From IMG/VR virus record IMGVR_UViG_2541047683_000001: a DNA stretch of 38,758 bases; one strand, given 5' to 3'. The translations under genes were made by a program, and so were the position numbers. Position 1 is the first letter of the stretch; each line of letters begins with the position of its first letter. Below the pieces are notes generated by a model. The model was not told where the DNA came from. It searched no databases and saw only the letters and a list, made by a program, of their open reading frames with translations. Of the stretch, positions 1,131 through 29,929 are shown in pieces. Source of the stretch: a virus (Duplodnaviria > Heunggongvirae > Uroviricota > Caudoviricetes).

Positions 1131-3113
1131 TCATTTTGAGTTAAAAAAGCTTATAATTTCTGTCAGCCATGAAGGCGTATATTTTTCATTAATATCAAAA
1201 AGAGCATTGGTGTATTCTTGACAAAATTTAGTTTTATTTCCAGATTCCTCAAAATATCTTTTTATTATTAATTTTTGGCTAGTTGTCAGATCTAATATTC
1301 CAGCTGCAACATTGGACGGTAATGTGTTAATGTTCTCTATAAATGAGAATCTATTATCACCTTTCTTATAAAGTCGATGTAATGTTTTGTGGAAAATAAT
1401 CCCAGATAATACATCTTCAATTTCAGTTGGTGGAGAAACTCTATTGTCGGTGGTTTTTAGTAAGTCAGCATCACTTAAATCATCGCGTAGCAGCAGTCTT
1501 CTGATTCTGACTTGCGATATGCTGTCTGAAGTATCAAATTTATCATACGATTGATCTGTATCCAATAAACAAAAGACTTTTCCTTTTATTGCCGGCTTTC
1601 TGTCTTTTAAAGCTAAGATAAGATATGAGTAAATATCTTTGAGTGCAAATGACCCCCCAACACTTAATACAATTATATTTTTATTTTCTAAATTTTCAAA
1701 TTTAAGATGGGATTCAATGTATAATTTATCTGTACGTCCTTCGCACAATATCCAATTATAATTATTTTGTGATGTAATTGAAGTTATTATGGATTGAACA
1801 AGATCATGATTGCTTTTCACTTCTAAAGTATCTAAATATGAGCCTTTAGATTCTTTAACAAGGGTCGACAATTCATCTCGATAATACTCAAGGTTAAGGC
1901 ATTTTATCAATGCTTGATTTGGAGAAACATAAGTGGCACTACCGCTCATTGCTGCAGGAAGAAAACCATACCAATGAGTAGTACATATGGTTTGAATGCC
2001 TATTTCACTTATTTTTTTAATCTTCTCAAATTGTTTAAAGCAAGATGTCGCATGTAAAGATAACTCTGGTTCATCGACAGCTAATATTGTAGCTTGTTGA
2101 GTTTTTTTGGGATTGTCTTTTAAAAAACCTATGGCTAAATCAAGTAATGCCTTCCTTTTTTCACCAGAACTAAGATTGTGGACAGGTGTATCCCTATTGA
2201 TATTGTCAATATAATGAAGAATTTTGTCACTAAAGTAAGTTTCGATGATTTTAGAAATCATGTGGCGTTGAGTAAATGAATTCTGCCGTTGCGTCGGTCT
2301 TTTGAATTGATACTGCCCATCAAGCTTATATGATAGTTGATCAACAAAGTCATTTAAGTGACGATTTATTTCATTGATGTCACTTTTTTTAATTATCTTA
2401 CTGATTCGTTGTTGTAAGTTTTCTCCAAGTAAAGATTGCAATAACTCACTCTCTATTTTTGAATATTCTGACGTGGTAATTTCTGCAGGCAAATAAATAT
2501 AGTTATAGATATCTTTTATATTATCAAGCAAGCGATTTGATGTGTTCTTGAAATGGTTTTTCTGAGTGTTTGGGGAGCTTCCATCGGGAATTAGTTCATC
2601 AATTCTGGAATGATAATCCTCAATTGATTCAAATATTGACATATAAGATCTAGGTGCTTCATTCGCTTTTTCTTTTATGACTCCTAAAGGAATTAAAAAG
2701 TAATCTTTAGATGAGTAGTTTAACTCTAATATATTGCGATGTGATATAAATTTTTCGGCAATTGTTCGTTGCATTGAATTAAAGTCTTCACTTTCCAATT
2801 GCCATGTAATATCACTAATAACATCAAGAGCTTTATAAGTAAATGAATTAGACCTGAAGCGATCTTTACGTATGAGAAAAATTGGTACAATAAACGGTTC
2901 ACGAGTTTCGAATCCCAGACTCCTGGCATCATTATTTATATCAAGTCTGTTTATATCTGTTCTGTTAAGAACAACATCCAAAGCTTGCAATATTGAACTT
3001 TTTCCAACACCATTTTCACCAATAAGCCAAGATGAATTGTTATTCATAGCGATCGGAATATAATGTTGATTCCTAAAATTTTTGAAGTTTCTTAAAATAA
3101 CACCGATAATCAT
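1131..3113 (-). CDS. OLD-family protein: N-terminal ABC-type ATPase plus C-terminal TOPRIM-like nuclease domain (candidate anti-phage cargo)
   Basis: ORF track 1131..3116; ATG at 3113 with AAGGGA upstream, 19 nt after the repressor stop; Walker A GENGVGKSS; Walker B-like ILAVDEPELSLH; C-terminal ILCEGRTD glutamate motif and CLLDTDQ DxD motif; visibly AT-rich. Confidence 0.7.
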   Translation of the reverse strand: MIIGVILRNFKNFRNQHYIPIAMNNNSSWLIGENGVGKSSILQALDVVLNRTDINRLDINNDARSLGFETREPFIVPIFLIRKDRFRSNSFTYKALDVISDITWQLESEDFNSMQRTIAEKFISHRNILELNYSSKDYFLIPLGVIKEKANEAPRSYMSIFESIEDYHSRIDELIPDGSSPNTQKNHFKNTSNRLLDNIKDIYNYIYLPAEITTSEYSKIESELLQSLLGENLQQRISKIIKKSDINEINRHLNDFVDQLSYKLDGQYQFKRPTQRQNSFTQRHMISKIIETYFSDKILHYIDNINRDTPVHNLSSGEKRKALLDLAIGFLKDNPKKTQQATILAVDEPELSLHATSCFKQFEKIKKISEIGIQTICTTHWYGFLPAAMSGSATYVSPNQALIKCLNLEYYRDELSTLVKESKGSYLDTLEVKSNHDLVQSIITSITSQNNYNWILCEGRTDKLYIESHLKFENLENKNIIVLSVGGSFALKDIYSYLILALKDRKPAIKGKVFCLLDTDQSYDKFDTSDSISQVRIRRLLLRDDLSDADLLKTTDNRVSPPTEIEDVLSGIIFHKTLHRLYKKGDNRFSFIENINTLPSNVAAGILDLTTSQKLIIKRYFEESGNKTKFCQEYTNALFDINEKYTPSWLTEIISFFNSK

Positions 3114-3132
3114 CAATTGTCCCTTCTGAATG

Positions 3133-4068
3133 TTATTTACAAGTCATTATTACTTTGGCGATGATGTTAATTTCATCAATTTTACATTCGATCTTATTAT
3201 TCTTACTTTCTAAAGCAATTCGACTGTTAGGCAATCGAATTAAATTACGTATAGAATAAATACCATCAATGGCTACAAGCCATAAGCCATCGTTTACTTC
3301 TTCAAAATCGCTATTGATTAGGTAAATAACATTTTCAAATTCAATAATTGATATTTTGCTACTATCGTTTGGTAAAAGTGTACGATCAAACATTAAATAT
3401 CCGTTGGTAAATAGTTTACCATTGGTAATATTTTGTTTGGTTAGACAAGTTATTTGTGATTTTGCATCCATAAACATAGGACCTTCAGATTGCGAAAGCC
3501 ACCGCAGCGATGCCCCTGTTTCTAAAGCACACTTGATAATCCAGTCGGAGGGAAAAGTATCCCTCATATAACGATTGGCTAATGTACTTTTTGAGACACC
3601 AAGGTGGTCAGCTAAGGCTTGCCGGGTTTTGAATCCATATGCTTGGACAAGGCGTTCTATTGCTGCCTTACCCCCCTTATTTGGATTTATATTGAACTCA
3701 TTTCGGATGTTTTCTTTTCGAACCGTCTTATCACAATTCGAGATTTTTTTGGTTTCATGTTCATCATTGAGTTCATGTTGGTGTGAAACGCTTTCGTTTA
3801 TGCAATCGGTGCCAAATGCTAACCATTCGACAGTAACACCTGTTTCCATGCTACAAATGACAACCCAGTCTGCGGGGAACGTGTCACGTGCATATCTGTT
3901 TGCCATCGTGCTTTGGGAGATACCAATGTGGTTACAGAATGCTTGGCGGGAAGTGAAGCCGTAAGCCTGCAGAATCCGATCTATGACCTGCTGCCCTCCA
4001 CGATTCTGCATTATTAAAGCCTTCATATCATCGCTAACATGGCGAAATGTGTTTTTGTGTGTTGACAT
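3133..4068 (-). CDS. cI: phage 186 CI-like immunity repressor with tandemly duplicated N-terminal DNA-binding domain
   Basis: Two diverged copies of the module ..QAYGF..RQA...LG.S.ST.ANRY.RDTFP.DW...C..ETG...WL (about aa 25-85 and 128-190), then a C-terminal region; alternative in-frame ATGs at 4026 and 4011, true start uncertain. Confidence 0.8.
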   Translation of the reverse strand: MSTHKNTFRHVSDDMKALIMQNRGGQQVIDRILQAYGFTSRQAFCNHIGISQSTMANRYARDTFPADWVVICSMETGVTVEWLAFGTDCINESVSHQHELNDEHETKKISNCDKTVRKENIRNEFNINPNKGGKAAIERLVQAYGFKTRQALADHLGVSKSTLANRYMRDTFPSDWIIKCALETGASLRWLSQSEGPMFMDAKSQITCLTKQNITNGKLFTNGYLMFDRTLLPNDSSKISIIEFENVIYLINSDFEEVNDGLWLVAIDGIYSIRNLIRLPNSRIALESKNNKIECKIDEINIIAKVIMTCK

Positions 4069-11306: not shown

Positions 11307-11382
11307 CGCGCGGTTTGACTGAAAAGTTATGATAAATCACAATTAGGTCTAGTTAGCATTTTTTCTTTTCATGGAGACAACT

Positions 11383-11883
11383 ATGGAACAGGATTATATA
11401 GATCGTGGCTTTGGTTTATGGTCAAAACCTGGTGTCCCGCGTAAGGGATGGGTAAACGTAGGAGTGGAAGACCTAGAAGAAAGTCGAAAAATTTGTGATA
11501 TGTGTGGGAAAACAGAGATAAGGTATGTCCACATAATGTCACATGAGAATTACCCAGATTACTTAGAGGTAGGGTGCATATGCGCTGGTCACTTGGAGAA
11601 TGATTATGATTCTCCAAGAAAACGAGAAAGTGAAATTAAAAGTCGATCAGCCAAAAGAAAAAGATGGTGTAACTTACCTTGGAAAATATCTAAAAAAAAT
11701 CAATTTTACATAAAAAAAGATGGATATAGCATCATCATTCTCGACAAGGGTGATTATTTTATGGGAATGATAGTTGACGAGAGAACGCAAATTAAATATT
11801 GGACTAGAGAATGTAAAGATACTAACGAGGCGAAATTACTTTCATTCGATAGAATAACAGCGCTAATGGCAAGCTCTAAATAA
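11383..11883 (+). CDS. zinc-ribbon-like protein, first gene of a two-gene accessory cassette
   Basis: ATG 11383 with GGAGA upstream (track ORF starts 11371); cysteine cluster CDMCGK...VGCICAGH; lysine/arginine-rich tail; AT-rich. Confidence 0.65.
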   Translation: MEQDYIDRGFGLWSKPGVPRKGWVNVGVEDLEESRKICDMCGKTEIRYVHIMSHENYPDYLEVGCICAGHLENDYDSPRKRESEIKSRSAKRKRWCNLPWKISKKNQFYIKKDGYSIIILDKGDYFMGMIVDERTQIKYWTRECKDTNEAKLLSFDRITALMASSK

Positions 11884-11899
11884 TTTTAGGATTAATTAA

Positions 11900-13030
11900 A
11901 TGTATAATGTTGTATTGGATACAAACATACTCCATGCGGAAGGTATTCACTCACGAGGTATGGCAACTCTTAAAAAGTTAATAGATGAAGGCATTGTTAA
12001 AGTTCATTTGCCTGAACTAGTCGTGAGAGAATTTTCCACGAAAAAAATCACCGTAATAAATGAAGCCTATAATAAGGCGATTAATATTTTAAGAGGCACT
12101 GAACGCGAAGCAAGAGGATCCGAAGAGTCGATACTGCGAGATATTGATGAACTAAAAAACATCATAGACGACAAAGTGAAAGTACTTGATGAAAAAATTA
12201 ATGGTGCAGTTAGGCAATGGATTCAGGATTTTCGAATAAATATTATCCCGTTACATAGTGAATTTACATCAACTGTTTTTGAGAACTATTTTTGTGGCAA
12301 TGGTGTTTTTAAATCGAAAAAATCAAGAGAAGACATACCAGATGCTTTCATTAGCCTCAGTATCGAAAAGTTGCATGATGAAGTCGGTGAATTAATGGTT
12401 GTACTCAAGGATGCGTTGTTTAGAAAGCATTTGTCTGGCTTGGATGGGGTAAAAGTTTATGATAGCTTAGATGAACTTTTCCAATTGCCTAACATTAGAG
12501 CCAGTTTAGAAAATGAAGCCGCATCCTCTTTTTTGACATCAAGTTTATTCAGAACAGCGTTAGAAAACTTCTTACAGCAGAAACCGAATTATTTCGAAGG
12601 ATTCTATCTTGAGATTACTGAGGGAACAGAACTGCTTGCTGATTGGGTTATTGGTGCACATACCGAAATCAACGATTATGGACAAGTAAAGGATATTACA
12701 ATAAGTGATGTAATCAGAAAATCTGAAAGTAACTATTCAGCAAAAATTTCTTTTAAATTGGACTCTAATATCTCTTATGTAACGGATTACGGTGAAGTGC
12801 TTAAAATAGAGAGAGATAAAAACAGAAGCGCGGATTGTTGGAGTATGACAGGTGATGGCATGTGCGATCTTAATGAAAATGTGAATTTAACCTTGGAAGG
12901 TGACTTAAGTATTACCTTTCAAGGTGATTTCAATACATTGAAAAAAGAAGAATCCGAAACTTATTTGAATGAAAATGTTATTGTTATGACAATAAGTTTA
13001 TATGAGGCTATTATAGACAAAGTTCTTTGA
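11900..13030 (+). CDS. PIN-like domain protein, second gene of the cassette
   Basis: 376 aa; N-terminus MYNVVLDTNIL typical of PIN-fold first acidic residue, later EDIPDAF; AGGA RBS; 17 bp after upstream gene; AT-rich. Confidence 0.7.
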   Translation: MYNVVLDTNILHAEGIHSRGMATLKKLIDEGIVKVHLPELVVREFSTKKITVINEAYNKAINILRGTEREARGSEESILRDIDELKNIIDDKVKVLDEKINGAVRQWIQDFRINIIPLHSEFTSTVFENYFCGNGVFKSKKSREDIPDAFISLSIEKLHDEVGELMVVLKDALFRKHLSGLDGVKVYDSLDELFQLPNIRASLENEAASSFLTSSLFRTALENFLQQKPNYFEGFYLEITEGTELLADWVIGAHTEINDYGQVKDITISDVIRKSESNYSAKISFKLDSNISYVTDYGEVLKIERDKNRSADCWSMTGDGMCDLNENVNLTLEGDLSITFQGDFNTLKKEESETYLNENVIVMTISLYEAIIDKVL

Positions 13031-20992: not shown

Positions 20993-21428
20993 ACTGCAGA
21001 AGGTGGACGACTGGCTGAGTGCTTTGTTGGCGAATCTGGAACCAGCCGCAAGAAGCCGCATGATGCGGCAGCTGGCGCAGGAACTGCGTCGGACACAGCA
21101 GCAGAATATCAGAATGCAGCGCAATCCAGATGGCAGCAGTTATGAACCTCGACGGGTAACAGCACGCAGTAAAAAGGGGCGCATCAAACGTCAGATGTTT
21201 GCAAAGCTGCGCACCACAAAATACCTGAAAACTGCCGCCAGCGCCGACTCTGCCAGCGTACAGTTTGAAGGTAAGGTGCAGCGTATTGCCCGTGTTCACC
21301 ATTACGGCCTGCGTGATCGCGTCAGTCATAAAGGGCCGGAGGTCCGTTACGCAGAGCGTCGCCTTCTGGGTGTGAATAATGAGGTGGAAACAGTCACTCG
21401 TGACACCCTTATGCGCTGGCTGGGTTAG
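20985..21428 (+). CDS. S: tail completion protein (P2 gpS-like)
   Basis: 147-aa ORF following R, GTG start; gpS-like. Confidence 0.85.
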   Translation: MAELQKVDDWLSALLANLEPAARSRMMRQLAQELRRTQQQNIRMQRNPDGSSYEPRRVTARSKKGRIKRQMFAKLRTTKYLKTAASADSASVQFEGKVQRIARVHHYGLRDRVSHKGPEVRYAERRLLGVNNEVETVTRDTLMRWLG

Positions 21429-22330
21429 AGACTAATTTCTAACTCAGTCAATCTATTTCTTGCGTTATCGAGGTTAATCTCATCATGGATTGCTTTTCCT
21501 GCCCCGTCAGCAGAAGGGTATATGCTAGCCGCACTGAACCCTGCTTTATTAAGAAGCTGGTAAGCATTGTATACTTCTTTTATGGGGAGTGTGTATTTAA
21601 AGAATACCGGGTGCGGGAAATCCCCAGAAAGCTCCTCTAGGCTATGAATTGTAGCTGTCCGTCCTCGTCCGCCAGTATGTGGATGAACGCTAAAAAGCCC
21701 AAATTGCGCCGCTAAGTGCGGACTGATAGAACCTGCTGTTGAATGCAATTTTATTTGTGGGTGAAGATTTATAAACTCTTTATTAAAGGCCCATATGGCT
21801 AATTTACTGGATGCATTCCAGTTTTTATAATTAGCAATGCAGGAGCTAACTGCAAAGTAAATCGCTATGTAAGGGATTCGAGTCCAATCTAACAATCTTG
21901 TTGGCACGCCATGATGCTGTGCGAGAGCCATTAAGTCGAAAACTTCTGGATTTGGCCAAGATGATGGATTTATAAGCCAATAATCTTGATTATTTATATC
22001 TAAATGCAATCTGCGGAAGTCAGGGCTATTACCGGGGATACGGACACCTACTCTGTCACAGTGATGCACAAAAGACATTAATGTTATTATCTCGCTTGCA
22101 ACAATGTCATCCGACGTAGGTGATGTTCTTCTTGTTAAATATTGCGGTGGATTACGAAGTGCTGATGGGATCAAGCTCCAGTTGGCATCACCTTGCCCTC
22201 TATAAATAATATTATCTTTACAGTTTGGGTCTATCTTTTGTGTCGGTGATAGAGCATCCCAAAGTTCAGCTGCATTGTTAAATTCGCGTAGTGAAAAAGT
22301 CGGGTATTTACGTTCGCTCATTATTTTCAT
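21425..22330 (-). CDS. FRG-domain-like protein inserted antisense between S and V (candidate defence cargo)
   Basis: Track ORF 21425..22366 starts at GTG; first ATG at 22330; motif IIYRGQGDANWSLIPSALR resembles the FRG-domain signature; stop codon overlaps S stop; no clear RBS. Confidence 0.6.
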   Translation of the reverse strand: MKIMSERKYPTFSLREFNNAAELWDALSPTQKIDPNCKDNIIYRGQGDANWSLIPSALRNPPQYLTRRTSPTSDDIVASEIITLMSFVHHCDRVGVRIPGNSPDFRRLHLDINNQDYWLINPSSWPNPEVFDLMALAQHHGVPTRLLDWTRIPYIAIYFAVSSCIANYKNWNASSKLAIWAFNKEFINLHPQIKLHSTAGSISPHLAAQFGLFSVHPHTGGRGRTATIHSLEELSGDFPHPVFFKYTLPIKEVYNAYQLLNKAGFSAASIYPSADGAGKAIHDEINLDNARNRLTELEISL

Positions 22331-24233: not shown

Positions 24234-24831
24234 TCTGCTGCCACCGGGTTCAACACCACTGGAGCGCCGACTGGCGCAAGCGTGCAGCGGGATTTCTGAT
24301 TTGCAGGTGCCGCTGCGTGACCTGTGGGATCCGACGACCTGTCCGGTCAGTTTCCTGCCTTATCTCGCCTGGGCGTTCTCTGTGGATCGCTGGGATGAGG
24401 GCTGGACTGAAAGCGTCAAGCGCCAGGTGGTGAAGGATGCTTTTTATATTCATCAGCATAAAGGGACCACCAGTGCCGTGCGTCGGGTGGTGGAGCCGTT
24501 CGGCTTTCTGATCCGCATTATTGAGTGGTGGCAGACCGGAGAGACACCGGGCACGTTTCGTCTGGATATCGGCGTGCAGGACCAGGGCATCACTGAAGAT
24601 ACCTATCTGGAACTTGAGCGACTGATAAGCGATGCCAAACCATGTAGCCGTCACATGATCGGCATGTCCATCAACCTGCAGACCAGCGGCCCGCATTGGG
24701 TGGGAGTCGCCAGCTATCTTGGCGAAGAAATCACGATCTATCCGTATATCAACGAAACGATTATTTCCGGTGGCACCGCGCATGAAGGCGGGGCGGTCCA
24801 TGTTATTGACACAATGAGAGTGAATCCATGA
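24226..24831 (+). CDS. I: baseplate/tail fibre attachment protein (P2 gpI-like)
   Basis: 201-aa ORF between J and H, overlapping both. Confidence 0.85.
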   Translation: MNSLLPPGSTPLERRLAQACSGISDLQVPLRDLWDPTTCPVSFLPYLAWAFSVDRWDEGWTESVKRQVVKDAFYIHQHKGTTSAVRRVVEPFGFLIRIIEWWQTGETPGTFRLDIGVQDQGITEDTYLELERLISDAKPCSRHMIGMSINLQTSGPHWVGVASYLGEEITIYPYINETIISGGTAHEGGAVHVIDTMRVNP

Positions 24832-26333
24832 GCACAAAATTTTATACCCTGCTGACGGATATTGGCGCGGCGAAACTTGCCAGCGCCGCCGCGCTCGGTG
24901 TGCCGCTAAAAATTACCTATATGGCGGTGGGCGATGGCGGTGGAGTATTGCCAACGCCGGACGCAAAGCAGACGGCACTGGTAAATGAGAAACGCCGGGC
25001 TGCGCTGAATATGCTTTATATCGACCCGCAGAACAGCAGCCAGATTATTGCCGAACAGGTGATCCCTGAAAACGAGGGCGGTTGGTGGATACGTGAAGTG
25101 GGCTTGTTTGATGAGTCCGGGGCATTGATTGCTGTGGGCAACTGCCCGGAAAGCTATAAGCCGCAACTGGCTGAAGGTAGCGGGCGCACTCAGACCGTGC
25201 GCATGGTGCTGATTACCAGCAGCACGGACAATATCACCCTGAAAATCGACCCTGCTGTAGTGCTGGCAACCCGCAAGTATGTGGATGACAAGGCACTGGA
25301 GCTGAAGGTGTACGCGGATGATCAGATGGCAAAACATCTTGCCGCACCGGACCCGCATTCACAGTACGCGCCAAAAGCCAGCCCGACATTTACCGGAACC
25401 CCCAAAGCGCCAACGCCAGCGGCGGGGAATAATACCACGCAGGTTGCGACCACTGCGTTTGTACAGGCGGCACTGACGGCCCTTATTAATGGTGCGCCAG
25501 CCACGCTGGACACGCTGAAAGAAATAGCCGCAGCCATTAACAATGATCCGAATTTCAGTACCACCATTAACAATGCGCTGGCACTTAAAGCACCGTTGTC
25601 GAGTCCGGCACTCACCGGAACGCCAACAGCCCCCACGGCGGCGCAGTCGGTCAACAATACACAGATTGCCACTACGGCTTTTGTGAAATCGGCGATTGCA
25701 GGAATGGTGGGTTCTGCACCTGCTGCACTGGATACACTGAACGAACTGGCGGCGGCACTGGGGAATGATCCGAACTTTGCCACGACAATGCTTAATGCGC
25801 TGGCAGGTAAACAACCGCTGGACAATACGCTGACTCATTTGAGTGGAAAGGATGTAGCAGGTCTTCTCGCATACCTTGGTTTGGGAGAAGGTGCTCCAGC
25901 TATTGGCGTTCCGTTCTTCTGGCCCTCCGCTGCAATGCCAAATTCTGTCATCGACAGCTGGTCCGGTATGGTGTTTTTGAAGTTCAACGGCGCGAAATTC
26001 TCTGCCACTGATTATCCTGTGCTGGCGAAAGTGTTTCCTTCGCTGGTATTACCTGAAGCCCGCGGTGATTTCATTCGTATCTGGGATGACGGGCGAGGTG
26101 CAGACGGTGGTCGCGAATTATTAAGCTGGCAGGCAGCTACAAACTTTTCTCAGTTTGCCGGGAATATAGGCGAAGGTGCGGGACACGCAATTAACTTTCA
26201 TGATGGCATCGCCGGAAATCAGCCAGGATTTTCACGATTTAATTTCACCAGTAACTCTGTGGGTGATGGTGTGAATTTTGTTGCTGTCAGACCGCGAAAT
26301 ATTGCATTTAACTTTCTGGTGAGGGCTAAATAA
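24828..26333 (+). CDS. H: tail fibre protein (P2 gpH-like)
   Basis: Conserved fibre N-terminus MSTKFYTLLTDIGAAKLA; internal fibre repeats; followed by tail fibre assembly gene. Confidence 0.9.
   Translation: MSTKFYTLLTDIGAAKLASAAALGVPLKITYMAVGDGGGVLPTPDAKQTALVNEKRRAALNMLYIDPQNSSQIIAEQVIPENEGGWWIREVGLFDESGALIAVGNCPESYKPQLAEGSGRTQTVRMVLITSSTDNITLKIDPAVVLATRKYVDDKALELKVYADDQMAKHLAAPDPHSQYAPKASPTFTGTPKAPTPAAGNNTTQVATTAFVQAALTALINGAPATLDTLKEIAAAINNDPNFSTTINNALALKAPLSSPALTGTPTAPTAAQSVNNTQIATTAFVKSAIAGMVGSAPAALDTLNELAAALGNDPNFATTMLNALAGKQPLDNTLTHLSGKDVAGLLAYLGLGEGAPAIGVPFFWPSAAMPNSVIDSWSGMVFLKFNGAKFSATDYPVLAKVFPSLVLPEARGDFIRIWDDGRGADGGRELLSWQAATNFSQFAGNIGEGAGHAINFHDGIAGNQPGFSRFNFTSNSVGDGVNFVAVRPRNIAFNFLVRAK
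25377..25820 (+). repeat. two tandem 222-bp (74-aa) repeats inside tail fibre gene H
   Basis: Protein repeats aa 184-257 and 258-331 share the pattern P.FTGTP.AP....N.TQ.ATTAFV..A.......AP..LDTL.E.AAA..NDPNF.TT..NALA.K.PL. Confidence 0.6.
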
Positions 26334-26926
26334 TGAAACCTGTTTTTGATGAAAATGGGCTGGCTACAGTGCCGGGCGATATGCGTTGTTTTTATTATGA
26401 TGCTGAAACATCTGAGTATACGGGCTGGTCTGATGAATATATTAATACTGGCGTAAGTATGCCCGCCTGTTCCACTGGTATTGACCCTGGCGAAAACATT
26501 CCGGGAAAAGTAGCAGTATTTACGGGTAAGGGATGGAGCCATGAAGAAGACCATCGCAATGAGACCGTTTACTCAACTGAAAATGGCGCAGCTGTTACAG
26601 TGGATTATATCGGTGCCATCAAAGACGGTTATGTCACGCTTTCACCGTTAACGCCATACGATAAATGGGATGGTGAGAAATGGGTGACGGATACCGAGGC
26701 ACAGCATAGCGCCGCAGTAGAAGCGGCAGAAGCACAGCGCCAGTCGCTGATTGATGCTGCAATGGCTTCCATCAGTCTGATTCAACTGAAATTACAGGCC
26801 GGACGGAAGTTGACGCAGGCAGAAACAACCCGACTTAACGCCGTGCTGGATTACATTGACGCGGTGGCGGCAACAGATACCAGCACCGCGCCGGATGTCA
26901 TCTGGCCTGAACTGCCGGAGGCGTAG
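26333..26926 (+). CDS. G: tail fibre assembly protein (P2 gpG / Tfa-like)
   Basis: 197 aa with Tfa-type C-terminus VDTSTAPDVIWPELP; TAATG coupling with H. Confidence 0.85.
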   Translation: MKPVFDENGLATVPGDMRCFYYDAETSEYTGWSDEYINTGVSMPACSTGIDPGENIPGKVAVFTGKGWSHEEDHRNETVYSTENGAAVTVDYIGAIKDGYVTLSPLTPYDKWDGEKWVTDTEAQHSAAVEAAEAQRQSLIDAAMASISLIQLKLQAGRKLTQAETTRLNAVLDYIDAVAATDTSTAPDVIWPELPEA

Positions 26927-27125
26927 GCCATTCAATATCTGGTGCACTGGAAGTATCGACCAGTTCCAGTGCGTCCAGGTAATCCAGCCACAAATTATAT
27001 TGTGCCAGTTCCTCACCTTTCAGACAACCAATAGCTGCTTTGCCAGGCCATTGCTTACTGTTTATAAACTCATTAGCCCAGTCTATTCGCAGCTGTTTCT
27101 CTGCTTCGGCAGCAATAACAATCTC
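26898..27125 (-). pseudogene. inverted 3' fragment of a second tail fibre assembly gene (remnant of invertible fibre segment)
   Basis: Minus-strand ORF ends LWLDYLDALELVDTSSAPDIEWPTPP (Tfa C-terminus), tail-to-tail with G and overlapping it by about 29 nt; N-terminal part replaced by AT-rich sequence from about 27126. Confidence 0.6.
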
Positions 27126-27169
27126 ATATAAATGAAACTGATAAGTTTTTATTAAAAGTAAGATGGATA

Positions 27170-27192
27170 CCACCATTTAATATAAATGGTGG
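27170..27192 (-). terminator. hairpin immediately downstream of the 290-aa cargo gene
   Basis: CCACCATTT(aatat)AAATGGTGG perfect 9-bp stem right after stop at 27200 on the minus strand, followed by a T-rich tract. Confidence 0.4.
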
Positions 27193-27199
27193 TTCACAG

Positions 27200-28072
27200 T
27201 TAACTAGCGTGTAATAAGTTGAACAGGTTTTTAGTTACTTCGTTTTTAGTACTAAAAAACATATCTTTAAGGTCAGGTAATGCAAAGAGAGCATTTGGGG
27301 CATTCGGTACAACAATAGGAGGTTCATATCCGTTGTCATACATTTTCTTTAAAGCGGCTACTATTTTTTTCTGATTTCGATTGAATTCATTCATGTCAAT
27401 AAAAATTTCTCCAGATAGTGTCCCGTCATCTTCACGTAGTATCGCTGGTTTGACACGACATATCTGATCCATTTCTCCAGTAGAAAAACCGGCAATCGCT
27501 GCATTAAATAACAAAGATGAAGTAGCCCATTTTTCATATAGTTTTTTGATAGCCATGCTTCTGATTTTTTTATCGTTGATATATCCAATGCCACTGGCCA
27601 AAACTTCGGTTAATGGATTTTCCCCGCGAGTTACTCCAGACCAATAGTTGTGCATCCAGGGCGCATTTTGCTCAAGTGGAGAGCCGAGATAATCAGTGAT
27701 CCACTCTGAATCCACCTCTGTAAAGTTCAAACCATGAAAATCAATTTCTGCAATAGTATTTTTATAGTTTTGATTTAAACTCCAACGGTCGATTGCTATT
27801 TCAGCCATTTCTTTTGTTTTGAATAGGTATATTCCGGTTAGGCGGGAAACCTTATCTCTGAAATTGTCTGAGCGAACCTTTTCAAGAGCTAACTCATTTT
27901 GTAATTTTTCATTGTGATTATCTGATAAGTATTTCCTTACTAGATTGTAGAACCAAATAGATACTCCAAACTCACTTTTATAGCAAATTGATTCAATTCT
28001 TCCTATTGCAACCTCCCAGGCAACAATTGGATTATTTAAATTTAAGTAAGCATATAGTTTTCTCTGTTCCAT
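27200..28072 (-). CDS. hypothetical 290-aa protein, AT-rich cargo at the tail fibre/invertase locus (candidate defence or exclusion gene)
   Basis: Track ORF 27200..28171; ATG 28072 with AAGGAAA RBS (upstream extension is AT-rich and RBS-less); globular-looking, not fibre-like; no motif I recognise. Confidence 0.6.
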   Translation of the reverse strand: MEQRKLYAYLNLNNPIVAWEVAIGRIESICYKSEFGVSIWFYNLVRKYLSDNHNEKLQNELALEKVRSDNFRDKVSRLTGIYLFKTKEMAEIAIDRWSLNQNYKNTIAEIDFHGLNFTEVDSEWITDYLGSPLEQNAPWMHNYWSGVTRGENPLTEVLASGIGYINDKKIRSMAIKKLYEKWATSSLLFNAAIAGFSTGEMDQICRVKPAILREDDGTLSGEIFIDMNEFNRNQKKIVAALKKMYDNGYEPPIVVPNAPNALFALPDLKDMFFSTKNEVTKNLFNLLHAS

Positions 28073-28209
28073 TTTTATTTTCCTTATAGATGCTATGAAG
28101 GTTATTATTACATAAATGTTCGATAAATATTTTAAAGTTTTAACTATGTTTCGGTGGCAATAAATATACATTACAAGTGAAATTTATCAAGATAACAAAA
28201 GGATAGCTA

Positions 28210-28614
28210 ATGCTAATAGGCTATGTACTCGTGTCAACAAATGACCAGAACACCGAGCTGTAACTCTTTATGCTGACAGAAGAGTTGCGCCAGCATGGTG
28301 TGAATTTTAGAAGCCTGACTGACAGTATTGATACCAGTACCCCAATGGGCCGTTTCTTTTTTCATGTCACGGGTGCCCTGGCTGAAATGGAACGCGAACT
28401 GATAGTTGAACGTACCAGGGCGGGGCTTGCTGCAGCTCGCGCCAAAGGCAGAGTAGGTGGACGCCGTCCTAAGTTGACCACCGAACAGTGGGCACAGATT
28501 GGGCGTTTACTCGAGGCCGGAGAATCAAGACAGCGTATTGCACTGATTTTTGATGTGGGTGTTTCCACAATTTATAGAAAATTTCCGCCAAATAAGAGCA
28601 ATGAATCCCCCTGA
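28210..28614 (+). pseudogene. serine DNA invertase (Pin/Gin/Hin family) inactivated by in-frame internal deletion with stop codon
   Basis: N-terminus MLIGYVLVSTNDQNTEL then TAA at 28261, continuing in frame with EELRQHGVNFRSLTDSIDTSTPMGRFFFHVTGALAEMERELI...GRRPKLT (C-terminal two-thirds of an invertase); about 65 catalytic-domain codons missing; R-to-L change in GYVRVS motif. Confidence 0.8.
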
Positions 28615-28756: not shown

Positions 28757-29929
28757 ATGGCTCAGGATTACCACCACGGGGTGCGTGTTGTTGAAGTCAA
28801 CGAAGGCACCCGATCCATTACCACGGTGAGCACCGCCATCGTGGGTATGGTCTGCACGGGCGATGATGCCGATGCAAAAATGTTTCCTCTTAATAAACCT
28901 GTGCTGATCACTGATGTGCTGACTGCAAGCGGTAAAGCGGGTGAGTCCGGCACATTGGCCCGCTCGTTGGATGCCATCGCTGACCAGGCAAAACCCGTGA
29001 CCGTTGTTGTGCGTGTACCGCAGGGTGAAACGGAAGAAGAAACCACGACCAATATCATCGGCGCAGTGACTGCTGAAGGTAAAAAAACAGGTATGAAAGC
29101 CCTGTTATCTGCCCAGTCCCAGCTCGGCGTTAAACCGCGTATTCTCGGCGTGCCAGGCCACGACACCAAGGCGGTAGCTACTGAGTTGCTGAGCGTGGCG
29201 CAAAGCCTGCGTGGGTTTGCTTACCTGTCAGCGTATGGCTGCAAGACAGTGCAGGAGGCGATCACTTACCGCGAAAACTTCAGCCAGCGCGAAGGGATGC
29301 TGATCTGGCCTGACTTTACTGGCTGGGACACGGTACTGAATGCCGAAGCAACGGCATATGCCACCGCCCGTGCGCTCGGTCTGCGCGCCAAAATTGATGA
29401 GCAGACTGGATGGCACAAAAGCCTGTCCAACGTGGGCGTGAACGGTGTCACCGGAATTTCTGCTGATGTGTTCTGGGATCTGCAGGACCCGGCAACCGAT
29501 GCAGGTCTGCTGAACCAGAACGACGTCACCACGCTTGTGCGCAAGGATGGTTTTCGCTTCTGGGGTTCCCGCTGTCTGAGCGATGATCCGCTCTTTGCCT
29601 TCGAAAACTACACCCGCACGGCGCAGGTGCTGATGGACACGATGGCAGAAGCACACATGTGGGCGGTGGATAAACCGCTTAACCCGTCGCTGGCCCGCGA
29701 CATTATCGAGGGTATCCGCGCCAAAATGCGCAGCCTGGTCAGTCAGGGCTATCTCATTGGTGGTGATTGCTGGCTGGATGAGTCGGTGAACGACAAAGAC
29801 ACGCTGAAAGCCGGAAAACTTACCATCGACTACGACTACACGCCAGTGCCGCCACTTGAAAACCTGATGCTGCGTCAGCGCATCACCGATCAGTACCTGG
29901 TGAATTTCGCCAGCCAGGTCAGCGCGTAA
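28757..29929 (+). CDS. FI: tail sheath protein (P2 gpFI-like)
   Basis: 390-aa ORF; AGGAGG RBS; gpFI-like sequence and position. Confidence 0.95.

What the first reader, a model, noticed from the sequence alone, without database searches (positions are those of the whole stretch)
27200..28072. AT-rich 290-aa gene of unknown function replacing the alternative tail-fibre module
Between the inverted Tfa fragment and the invertase pseudogene, where an alternative fibre C-terminal domain would be expected, sits a strongly AT-rich gene with its own AAGGAAA RBS, an AT-rich upstream region and a perfect hairpin just after its stop. The 290-aa product is rich in aromatic and charged residues, looks globular rather than fibre-like, and carries no motif I can recognise. 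This corresponds to the Z/fun-type hotspot downstream of the fibre genes in P2-like phages, so it is a strong candidate for an uncharacterised phage-exclusion or defence gene.
Basis: partly seen in the sequence, partly recalled or inferred. Interest (0 to 1): 0.7.

Follow-up and report, generated by a model that had tools for sequence, protein, structure and literature searches.

The report
ART-fold cargo gene in P2 prophage
A real, horizontally acquired 290-aa gene sits in the known "Z/fun" accessory slot of a P2-like E. coli prophage; it belongs to an uncharacterised branch (DUF2441/BC2332-like) of the ADP-ribosyltransferase fold and is a testable candidate for a one-gene anti-phage protein, with no function shown yet.

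Summary
Window 27200-28072 (minus strand) encodes a 290-aa protein with an AAGGAAA ribosome-binding site and an 11-bp perfect hairpin after the stop. GC is 0.36 against 0.53-0.55 in the flanks. The gene lies between a truncated inverted Tfa gene and a decayed invertase, upstream of the tail sheath gene. This is the position and strand of fun(Z) in phage P2, but there is no homology to Fun(Z).

A relative with an intact invertible segment shows that 695 bp (half of Tfa', the alternative fibre tip, the right crossover site) were replaced by a 1102-bp AT-rich block. In Citrobacter the gene coexists with an intact invertase and the alternative fibre tip.

Homologs are single-gene cargo in both P2 hotspots, other prophages, a Vibrio cassette array, plasmids and small islands, with no conserved partner. 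No known defence model matches.

Best reading (about 0.4): a self-contained ART-fold exclusion/defence effector. Catalysis and phenotype are untested.

The parts
27200..28072 (-). CDS, 290 aa (RefSeq WP_021513022.1 'hypothetical protein'). N-domain 1-174 is DUF2441/BC2332-like (ART superfamily); C-domain 175-290 is a variable alpha/beta domain.
28079..28085 (-). Shine-Dalgarno-like AAGGAAA, 6 nt upstream of the ATG
   Evidence: read directly
28163..28190 (-). sigma-70-like promoter candidate TTGATA-16-TATATT (10/12); consensus match only
   Evidence: hit count not above shuffles
27169..27193 (-). perfect 11-bp stem / 3-nt loop hairpin 6 nt after the stop; probable terminator with a weak U-tract
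27108..28209 (.). 1102-bp AT-rich (GC 0.336) block that replaces 695 bp of the ancestral invertible segment
   Evidence: (blastn against ETEC4085 locus L009)
26898..27107 (-). remnant (C-terminal half) of the inverted tail-fibre assembly gene Tfa'
28211..28614 (+). Hin/Gin-type invertase pseudogene: 17 N-terminal codons (the conserved GYVRVST reads GYVLVST here), then a stop; 165 bp deleted internally relative to ETEC4085; C-terminal part 28270-28614
25864..25890 (+). only surviving crossover site of the former invertible segment (TTCTCGCATACCTTGGTTTGGGAGAAG) inside fibre gene H; the partner site is lost

Best explanation
The gene is a self-contained accessory ('moron') gene acquired horizontally into the Z/fun slot of a P2-like prophage. 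It is probably transcribed from its own signals, antisense to the late tail operons, and so would be expressed in the lysogen (inferred). Its conserved N-terminal domain has the BC2332-like ADP-ribosyltransferase-superfamily fold, with an invariant polar set (R67, S76-R77, D121, Y143, E156, plus E60/E64). I propose that this domain binds NAD+ and, when a foreign phage infects, ADP-ribosylates an essential macromolecule. Nucleic acid is more likely than protein as the target, by analogy with DarT and CmdT; alternatively it may hydrolyse NAD+. Either outcome would abort or exclude the infection. The faster-evolving C-terminal domain would hold the enzyme inactive and/or recognise the trigger, which would explain why no antitoxin gene accompanies it. 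Shown: the gene is real and under purifying selection; the fold family; the hotspot position; mobility as a single gene. Inferred: expression in the lysogen, NAD+ use, the target, the trigger, and the defence phenotype.
Confidence: 0.4

Rival explanations
1. It is an ART-fold scaffold without transferase activity (a pseudoenzyme). It would act by binding, for example as a nucleotide or protein sensor, decoy or inhibitor, whether in defence or in some other role.
Against: Five polar or aromatic residues are 100% invariant across 93 sequences and are shared with BC2332. The N-domain dN/dS of 0.019 looks like an active site. ProFunc matched toxin catalytic templates on 2AUA.
Confidence: 0.2
2. 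It is a counter-defence or host-takeover enzyme: an ART-fold protein that modifies a host immune or core component for the benefit of the prophage. Examples from my own knowledge are ART-type anti-CRISPRs such as AcrIF11, or T4 Alt/ModA/ModB.
For: ART-fold domain. It is carried by phages, plasmids and cassettes, including a position next to a type I-F CRISPR-Cas on a Legionella plasmid and between terS and terL in another phage.
Against: It has its own RBS and hairpin and is antisense to the late operon in the lysogenic-conversion slot, like fun(Z), rather than in an early operon. It also occurs in chromosomal islands and a Vibrio cassette array away from any phage.
Confidence: 0.12
3. It is a selfish or host-directed accessory gene unrelated to phage conflict: an addiction or stabilisation toxin with built-in control, a stress modulator, or a virulence-type lysogenic conversion factor.
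For: It often neighbours toxin-antitoxin modules (ParE/Phd, RelE, PemK) and a CdiI_2 immunity-like gene. P2 hotspots also carry non-defence cargo such as cytolethal distending toxin.
Against: There is no signal peptide or hydrophobic segment. It occurs in environmental, non-pathogenic taxa such as Moritella, Nitrospirota and compost bacteria. No antitoxin or immunity partner is conserved.
Confidence: 0.13
4. It is a tail-fibre-related protein: an alternative receptor-binding tip or a chaperone.
For: It occupies the place and orientation of the alternative fibre tip Hv' in related prophages.
Against: It has no similarity to fibre or Tfa families. It is a globular two-domain model whose only strong structural match is BC2332. 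Homologs lie far from any tail genes. In Citrobacter the real Hv' is still present next to it. It has its own start codon and no crossover site to fuse it to H.
Confidence: 0.01

Closest known systems
BC2332 of Bacillus cereus (PDB 2AUA), Pfam DUF2441 (PF10386), SCOP d.166.1.6 'BC2332-like'
   Different: The window protein scores below the Pfam gathering threshold in the local model (13.7 against 25 bits). It has an extra, always-present C-terminal domain of about 115 aa. BC2332 itself has no known function.
Fun(Z) of phage P2
   Same: Same slot (between the tail-fibre assembly gene and sheath FI), same antisense orientation, and a non-essential lysogenic-conversion position.
   Different: No sequence similarity (BLASTP E 1.9). 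Fun(Z) is 528 aa. In this window the slot is embedded in a degraded invertible fibre segment.
CmdT of CmdTAC (PD-T4-9)
   Same: An ART-fold effector. The system is listed among those found by exploring the P2 diversity regions, and CmdT ADP-ribosylates mRNA to block translation during infection (PMC11618068).
   Different: CmdT has the H-Y-[EDQ] triad and needs an antitoxin and a SecB-like chaperone. Here there are no partner genes, no PADLOC match and no recognisable triad.
DarT of DarTG
CapRel(SJ46)-type fused toxin-antitoxin defence proteins (from my own knowledge, not tested here)
   Same: The architecture I propose: a single prophage-borne polypeptide with a conserved N-terminal enzymatic domain and a more variable C-terminal regulatory or sensing domain.
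   Different: Unrelated fold and chemistry. Among close relatives the C-domain is only modestly more divergent than the N-domain. Autoinhibition is not shown.

Membership tests
DUF2441 / BC2332-like (PF10386; SCOP d.166.1.6) | Significant sequence match to the family model or its structural representative | tested here: met
   The single sequence is below the Pfam cutoff (13.7 bits, E 0.063). However, family profile A4 hits 2AUA at E 2.7e-10, 41 of 59 distant relatives hit PF10386 with best E 2.2e-7, and a 99%-identical protein carries a precomputed PF10386.17 hit.
DUF2441 / BC2332-like (PF10386; SCOP d.166.1.6) | Same three-dimensional fold as 2AUA | tested here: met
ADP-ribosyltransferase superfamily (active enzymes) | ART core fold shared with proven ARTs | tested here: inconclusive
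ADP-ribosyltransferase superfamily (active enzymes) | Catalytic triad H-Y-E, R-S-E or a recognised variant placed on beta-1, beta-2 and beta-5 | tested here: inconclusive
   R67, R77, D121, Y143 and E156 are invariant, and their order R...Y...E is compatible with a triad variant. No coordinates were available to place them. S122 is 77% conserved. Position 8 is never His or Arg.
ADP-ribosyltransferase superfamily (active enzymes) | NAD+ binding and ADP-ribose transfer | not testable with these tools
   Needs biochemistry or a ligand-aware structure prediction.
P2 Z/fun hotspot cargo | Located between the tail-fibre assembly gene and sheath gene FI of a P2-like phage, non-core and variable between relatives | tested here: met
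   Only 7 of 5426 E. coli genomes carry it, while 2108 share the flanking Tfa sequence.
P2 Fun(Z) protein family | Sequence homology to Fun(Z) | tested here: not met
   BLASTP best E 1.9.
Known anti-phage defence systems (PADLOC-DB v2.0.0) | Match to any defence-protein HMM | tested here: not met
   0 families for the protein at E<=1. Among 59 family members there are only single chance-level hits. Databases newer than 2023 were not available.
Two- or three-gene ART toxin systems (DarTG, CmdTAC, ParST/Xre-RES) | Conserved adjacent antitoxin or partner gene | tested here: not met
   Neighbours differ in all of the roughly 15 contexts examined.
Tail fibre / fibre assembly proteins | Fibre or Caudo_TAP domains, or fusion to H through the crossover site | tested here: not met

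The most novel reading that the evidence does not exclude
The DUF2441/BC2332 branch of the ART fold is a family of antitoxin-less, single-polypeptide immune effectors. A non-canonical R-D-Y-E active site would be held off by the protein's own C-terminal domain and released by a phage-encoded trigger, after which it would ADP-ribosylate nucleic acid or deplete NAD+. This would give the first function for a structure that has stood as an orphan since its 2005 release, and a new ART-based defence architecture that moves between both P2 hotspots, integron-like cassettes and plasmids.
Probability: 0.25. Interest if true: 0.7.

Novelty: new variant of a known kind. Interest (0 to 1): 0.52.

Why it matters
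The P2 Z/fun and tin/old slots have been productive sources of new defence systems, so an unannotated cargo gene found in both of them is a good candidate for testing. This gene also carries a structural lead: an ART-superfamily domain with five invariant residues. That lead turns "hypothetical protein" into direct experiments, namely point mutants, NAD+ assays and a phage panel. A positive result would assign a function to DUF2441/BC2332, a structural-genomics orphan, and would add a one-gene ART architecture alongside DarTG and CmdTAC. The locus also records how a phase-variable tail-fibre switch was lost: one crossover site is gone and the invertase decayed independently in two lineages where the cargo gene sits.

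Tried and rejected
Searches that found nothing:
- Pfam, NCBIfam and PADLOC on the single protein gave nothing above threshold. The DUF7336 and lectin hits are noise.
- tblastn against 50,697 phage records found no match.
- Literature searches for the RefSeq accessions found nothing. 'DUF2441' and 'BC2332' returned only classification or listing papers.
- PADLOC on 59 relatives gave only chance-level singletons.

Resources that were unavailable:
- The Foldseek afdb50 library was not on the machine.
- The Aravind et al. ART review (PMC6126934) is not held.

Structure searches of limited use:
- Foldseek against PDB and BFVD added only 2AUA and two uncharacterised phage proteins.
- I could not map a canonical triad. 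The R77-S122-E156 'R-S-E' idea was weakened because S122 is only 77% conserved. No model coordinates were available for a superposition.

Other checks:
- A generic Hin half-site search (TTATCAAAAACC) found nothing relevant at the locus. The true crossover site was found only by comparison with an intact relative.
- The promoter scan gave hits no more frequent than in shuffled sequence.
- I tested the idea that the C-domain is hypervariable in the CapRel manner. It is clearly less conserved at depth but only slightly so among close relatives.
- The tail-fibre reading was rejected (see rivals).

Full report
**1. What is there**

Window 27200-28072 on the minus strand is a 290-codon ORF.
- It has an AAGGAAA Shine-Dalgarno-like site 6 nt before the ATG.
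- An 11-bp perfect hairpin lies at 27169-27193, 6 nt after the stop (z = -3.68; 0 of 200 shuffles fold as well).
- GC is 0.356 (GC3 0.307) against 0.525-0.55 in the flanking tail genes; sheath GC3 is 0.644.
- A longer 323-aa reading is possible, but every homolog and RefSeq start at MEQRK.
- Against a 97%-identical allele in E. coli GN02461, dN/dS is 0.136 (16 synonymous, 9 non-synonymous changes).

This is a real gene under purifying selection.

**2. Where it sits**

The whole window is a P2-like prophage that is 100% identical to E. coli C4 over the region tested.
- Gene order is baseplate, fibre H (24828-26333), Tfa (26333-26926), an inverted Tfa' remnant, the target gene, an invertase pseudogene, and sheath FI (28757-29929).
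- In phage P2 itself, fun(Z) lies on the minus strand between G and FI and is annotated "blocks growth of T5; lysogenic conversion". The slot and the orientation are therefore the same.
- The proteins are unrelated (BLASTP E 1.9).
- The literature describes three variable regions in P2-like phages: TO, Z and orf30 (PMC3091744). It describes the Z/fun hotspot as a mix of fibre swaps, invertases and defence-like cargo (bioRxiv 10.1101/2024.10.15.618418).

**3. What was replaced**

A related prophage in E. coli ETEC4085 has the intact arrangement: H, Tfa, Tfa' (147 aa), Hv' (gp53-like, 136 aa), a 567-nt invertase gene annotated without a pseudogene flag, and then sheath.
- blastn shows that homology with the window stops at 27107 and resumes at 28210.
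- So 695 bp (the N-terminal half of Tfa', Hv' and the right crossover site) are replaced by a 1102-bp block of GC 0.336.
- The 27-nt crossover sites of the intact element were located. The window keeps only the left one, at 25864-25890.
- The invertase has a premature stop and a 165-bp internal deletion. The GN02461 lineage has a different invertase deletion. The switch is dead and decayed independently in the two lineages.
- In Citrobacter sedlakii the homolog (61% identity) lies next to an intact 185-aa invertase. About 56 bp after its stop comes a crossover-like site, followed in frame by a fibre tip (QLGEAAKRDVGTGANQIPDM...).

The primary slot is therefore between the invertible segment and the invertase. 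"Replacement of the alternative fibre" is specific to the E. coli lineage.

**4. What the protein is**

Single-sequence scans gave only sub-threshold DUF2441 (13.7 bits) and two PHROGs of unknown function.

*Family size and architecture.* There are 104 full-length homologs in Enterobacterales, Vibrio, Moritella, Aeromonas, Betaproteobacteria, Nitrospirota and Anaerolineae. An exhaustive HMM search with the N-domain profile found 533 cluster representatives at E<=1e-3 among 1.84 billion. Nearly all are 265-320 aa with the domain at the N-terminus. The family is small and its architecture is fixed.

*Structure.* AlphaFold2 with the family alignment gave pLDDT 93.1 and pTM 0.89.
- Among those weak hits, four true ART-fold proteins appear with 73-113 aligned residues: SopF-like 7dn9, DarT 7omv, Res 9r35 and ParT 6d0h.

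*Sequence link to BC2332.* A profile of distant relatives hits 2AUA at E 2.7e-10, and 41 of 59 distant relatives hit Pfam DUF2441.

*Classification of BC2332.* BC2332-like is a family of the SCOP ADP-ribosylation superfamily (PMC3000352). DUF2441 is in Pfam's ART clan (PMC7955679). ProFunc matched active-site templates of diphtheria toxin, exotoxin A and cholix toxin on 2AUA (PMC3024214).

*Conservation.* In a 93-sequence alignment, R67, R77, D121, Y143 and E156 are 100% invariant. W19, G24, S38, E60, E64, S76, F84, W124, G146 and P153 are at least 96% conserved. The key residues are shared with BC2332.

*The C-terminal domain.* Residues 175-290 form an alpha/beta domain that keeps only a P266-D267 motif.
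- Mean pairwise identity is 29% there, against 52% for the N-domain.
- dN/dS is 0.52 there, against 0.019 for the N-domain, but on small counts.
- Among close relatives the gap between the two domains is modest.

**5. Context across genomes**

No neighbour is conserved, so this is a single-gene module.

| Host or element | Position of the homolog |
|---|---|
| Moritella, Aeromonas (P2-like prophage) | the other P2 hotspot, between gpA and portal; in Moritella beside a PLD/NgoFVII-like nuclease |
| Yersinia (HP1-like prophage) | edge of the prophage |
| Unrelated phage (IMG/VR contig) | between terS and terL |
| Vibrio chromosome 2 | cassette array with ParE/Phd |
| Pantoea | island with P2 remnants and AAA_15/21 |
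| Candidimonas, Nitrospirota | small islands with toxin-antitoxin and restriction-modification genes |
| Legionella conjugative plasmid | between HEPN/RelE and type I-F CRISPR-Cas |
| Acinetobacter 9-kb plasmid | next to RelE/ParE |

The gene is rare: 7 of 5426 complete E. coli genomes, no sequenced phage record, and 5 IMG/VR loci.

The same prophage also carries AT-rich cargo in its other slots: an OLD-like ATPase-TOPRIM protein, a PIN_12 pair, and an FRG/PDC-S15 protein.

**6. Mechanism**

The best-supported reading is a self-contained exclusion or defence effector.
- The conserved ART-superfamily domain would use NAD+ to modify a target, or would deplete NAD+, on infection.
- The variable C-domain would control it or sense the trigger.

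The steps that are shown are the gene, the fold family, the invariant residues, the hotspot position and the solitary mobility. The steps that are inferred are expression in the lysogen, NAD+ chemistry, the target, the trigger and the phenotype.

I put about 0.55 on a conflict-with-phage role and about 0.3-0.35 on true ART/NADase chemistry. The combined statement gets about 0.4 because parts of it can hold independently.

The rivals are an inert ART-fold binder (0.2), a counter-defence enzyme (0.12), a non-phage-related toxin or conversion factor (0.13), and a fibre component (0.01).

**7. Comparison with what is known**

- It is a member, by profile and by structure, of DUF2441/BC2332-like.
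- It is positionally equivalent to P2 fun(Z) but not homologous to it.
- It may work like the ART toxins of DarTG or CmdTAC (PMC11618068), but it fails their membership tests. It has no partner genes, no HMM match and no canonical triad.

Finding unknown cargo in this hotspot is expected. The ART-fold, antitoxin-less architecture and a first functional handle on DUF2441 are the new elements.

**8. Verdict**

Novelty is a new variant of a known kind (candidate only). Interest is about 0.5: a well-defined, cheap-to-test candidate rather than a surprise.

Noticed in passing
window 1131-3116 (-): A 661-aa AT-rich (GC 0.315) OLD-family protein lies between the integrase (1-1068) and the CI-like repressor (3133-4068). 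It matches Pfam AAA_15 and OLD-like_TOPRIM, and PADLOC AriA and Old. This corresponds to the 'third' P2 hotspot mentioned in bioRxiv 10.1101/2024.10.15.618418.
   Followed up: partly
window 11371-13030 (+): At the tin/old (TO) hotspot between the replication gene and portal there is a 170-aa ORF with no hits and a 376-aa PIN_12 protein (GC 0.348). Neither matches PADLOC. This may be an uncharacterised two-gene system.
   Followed up: partly
window 21425-22321 (-); L002 595-1395: The orf30-type slot between the virion-morphogenesis gene and baseplate V holds an FRG-domain protein that matches the PADLOC candidate PDC-S15 (E 1e-31). In the otherwise similar GN02461 prophage the same slot holds a TIR-domain protein.
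   Followed up: partly
window 25864-25890 and 28211-28614; L009 3932-3958 and 5822-5848: The tail-fibre inversion switch is dead. Only the left crossover site survives. The invertase has a premature stop and a 165-bp deletion, and the conserved GYVRVST reads GYVLVST. The GN02461 lineage has a different invertase deletion, so the decay was independent after the cargo gene arrived.
   Followed up: yes
L003 8873-9061 (Citrobacter sedlakii): Here the homolog lies outside the invertible segment. A crossover-like site and a fibre tip (QLGEAAKRDVGTGANQIPDM...) follow its stop, and the invertase is intact. All three contigs end here, which may reflect assembly ambiguity at the invertible segment.
   Followed up: yes
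L017 5393-6852 (Legionella plasmid); L014 8356-8739; L003 7266-7823: Small serine recombinases recur as neighbours. In Legionella a 185-aa recombinase ends 15 bp before the homolog; Candidimonas has a Resolvase fragment nearby; E. coli and Citrobacter have the invertase. That is 4 of about 15 contexts. It might reflect how the cassette moves, or it might be coincidence.
   Followed up: no
window 24828-26333; L001 3929-5434: RefSeq annotates fibre gene H of strain C4 as two partial pseudogenes, although the window shows an uninterrupted 501-aa ORF. I did not check whether an internal segment is missing relative to functional fibres.
   Followed up: no
L011 7481-7747 (Pantoea sp. BL1): An 88-aa CdiI_2 (contact-dependent inhibition immunity) homolog lies 254 bp upstream of the Pantoea homolog. 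This was not seen in any other context.
   Followed up: no
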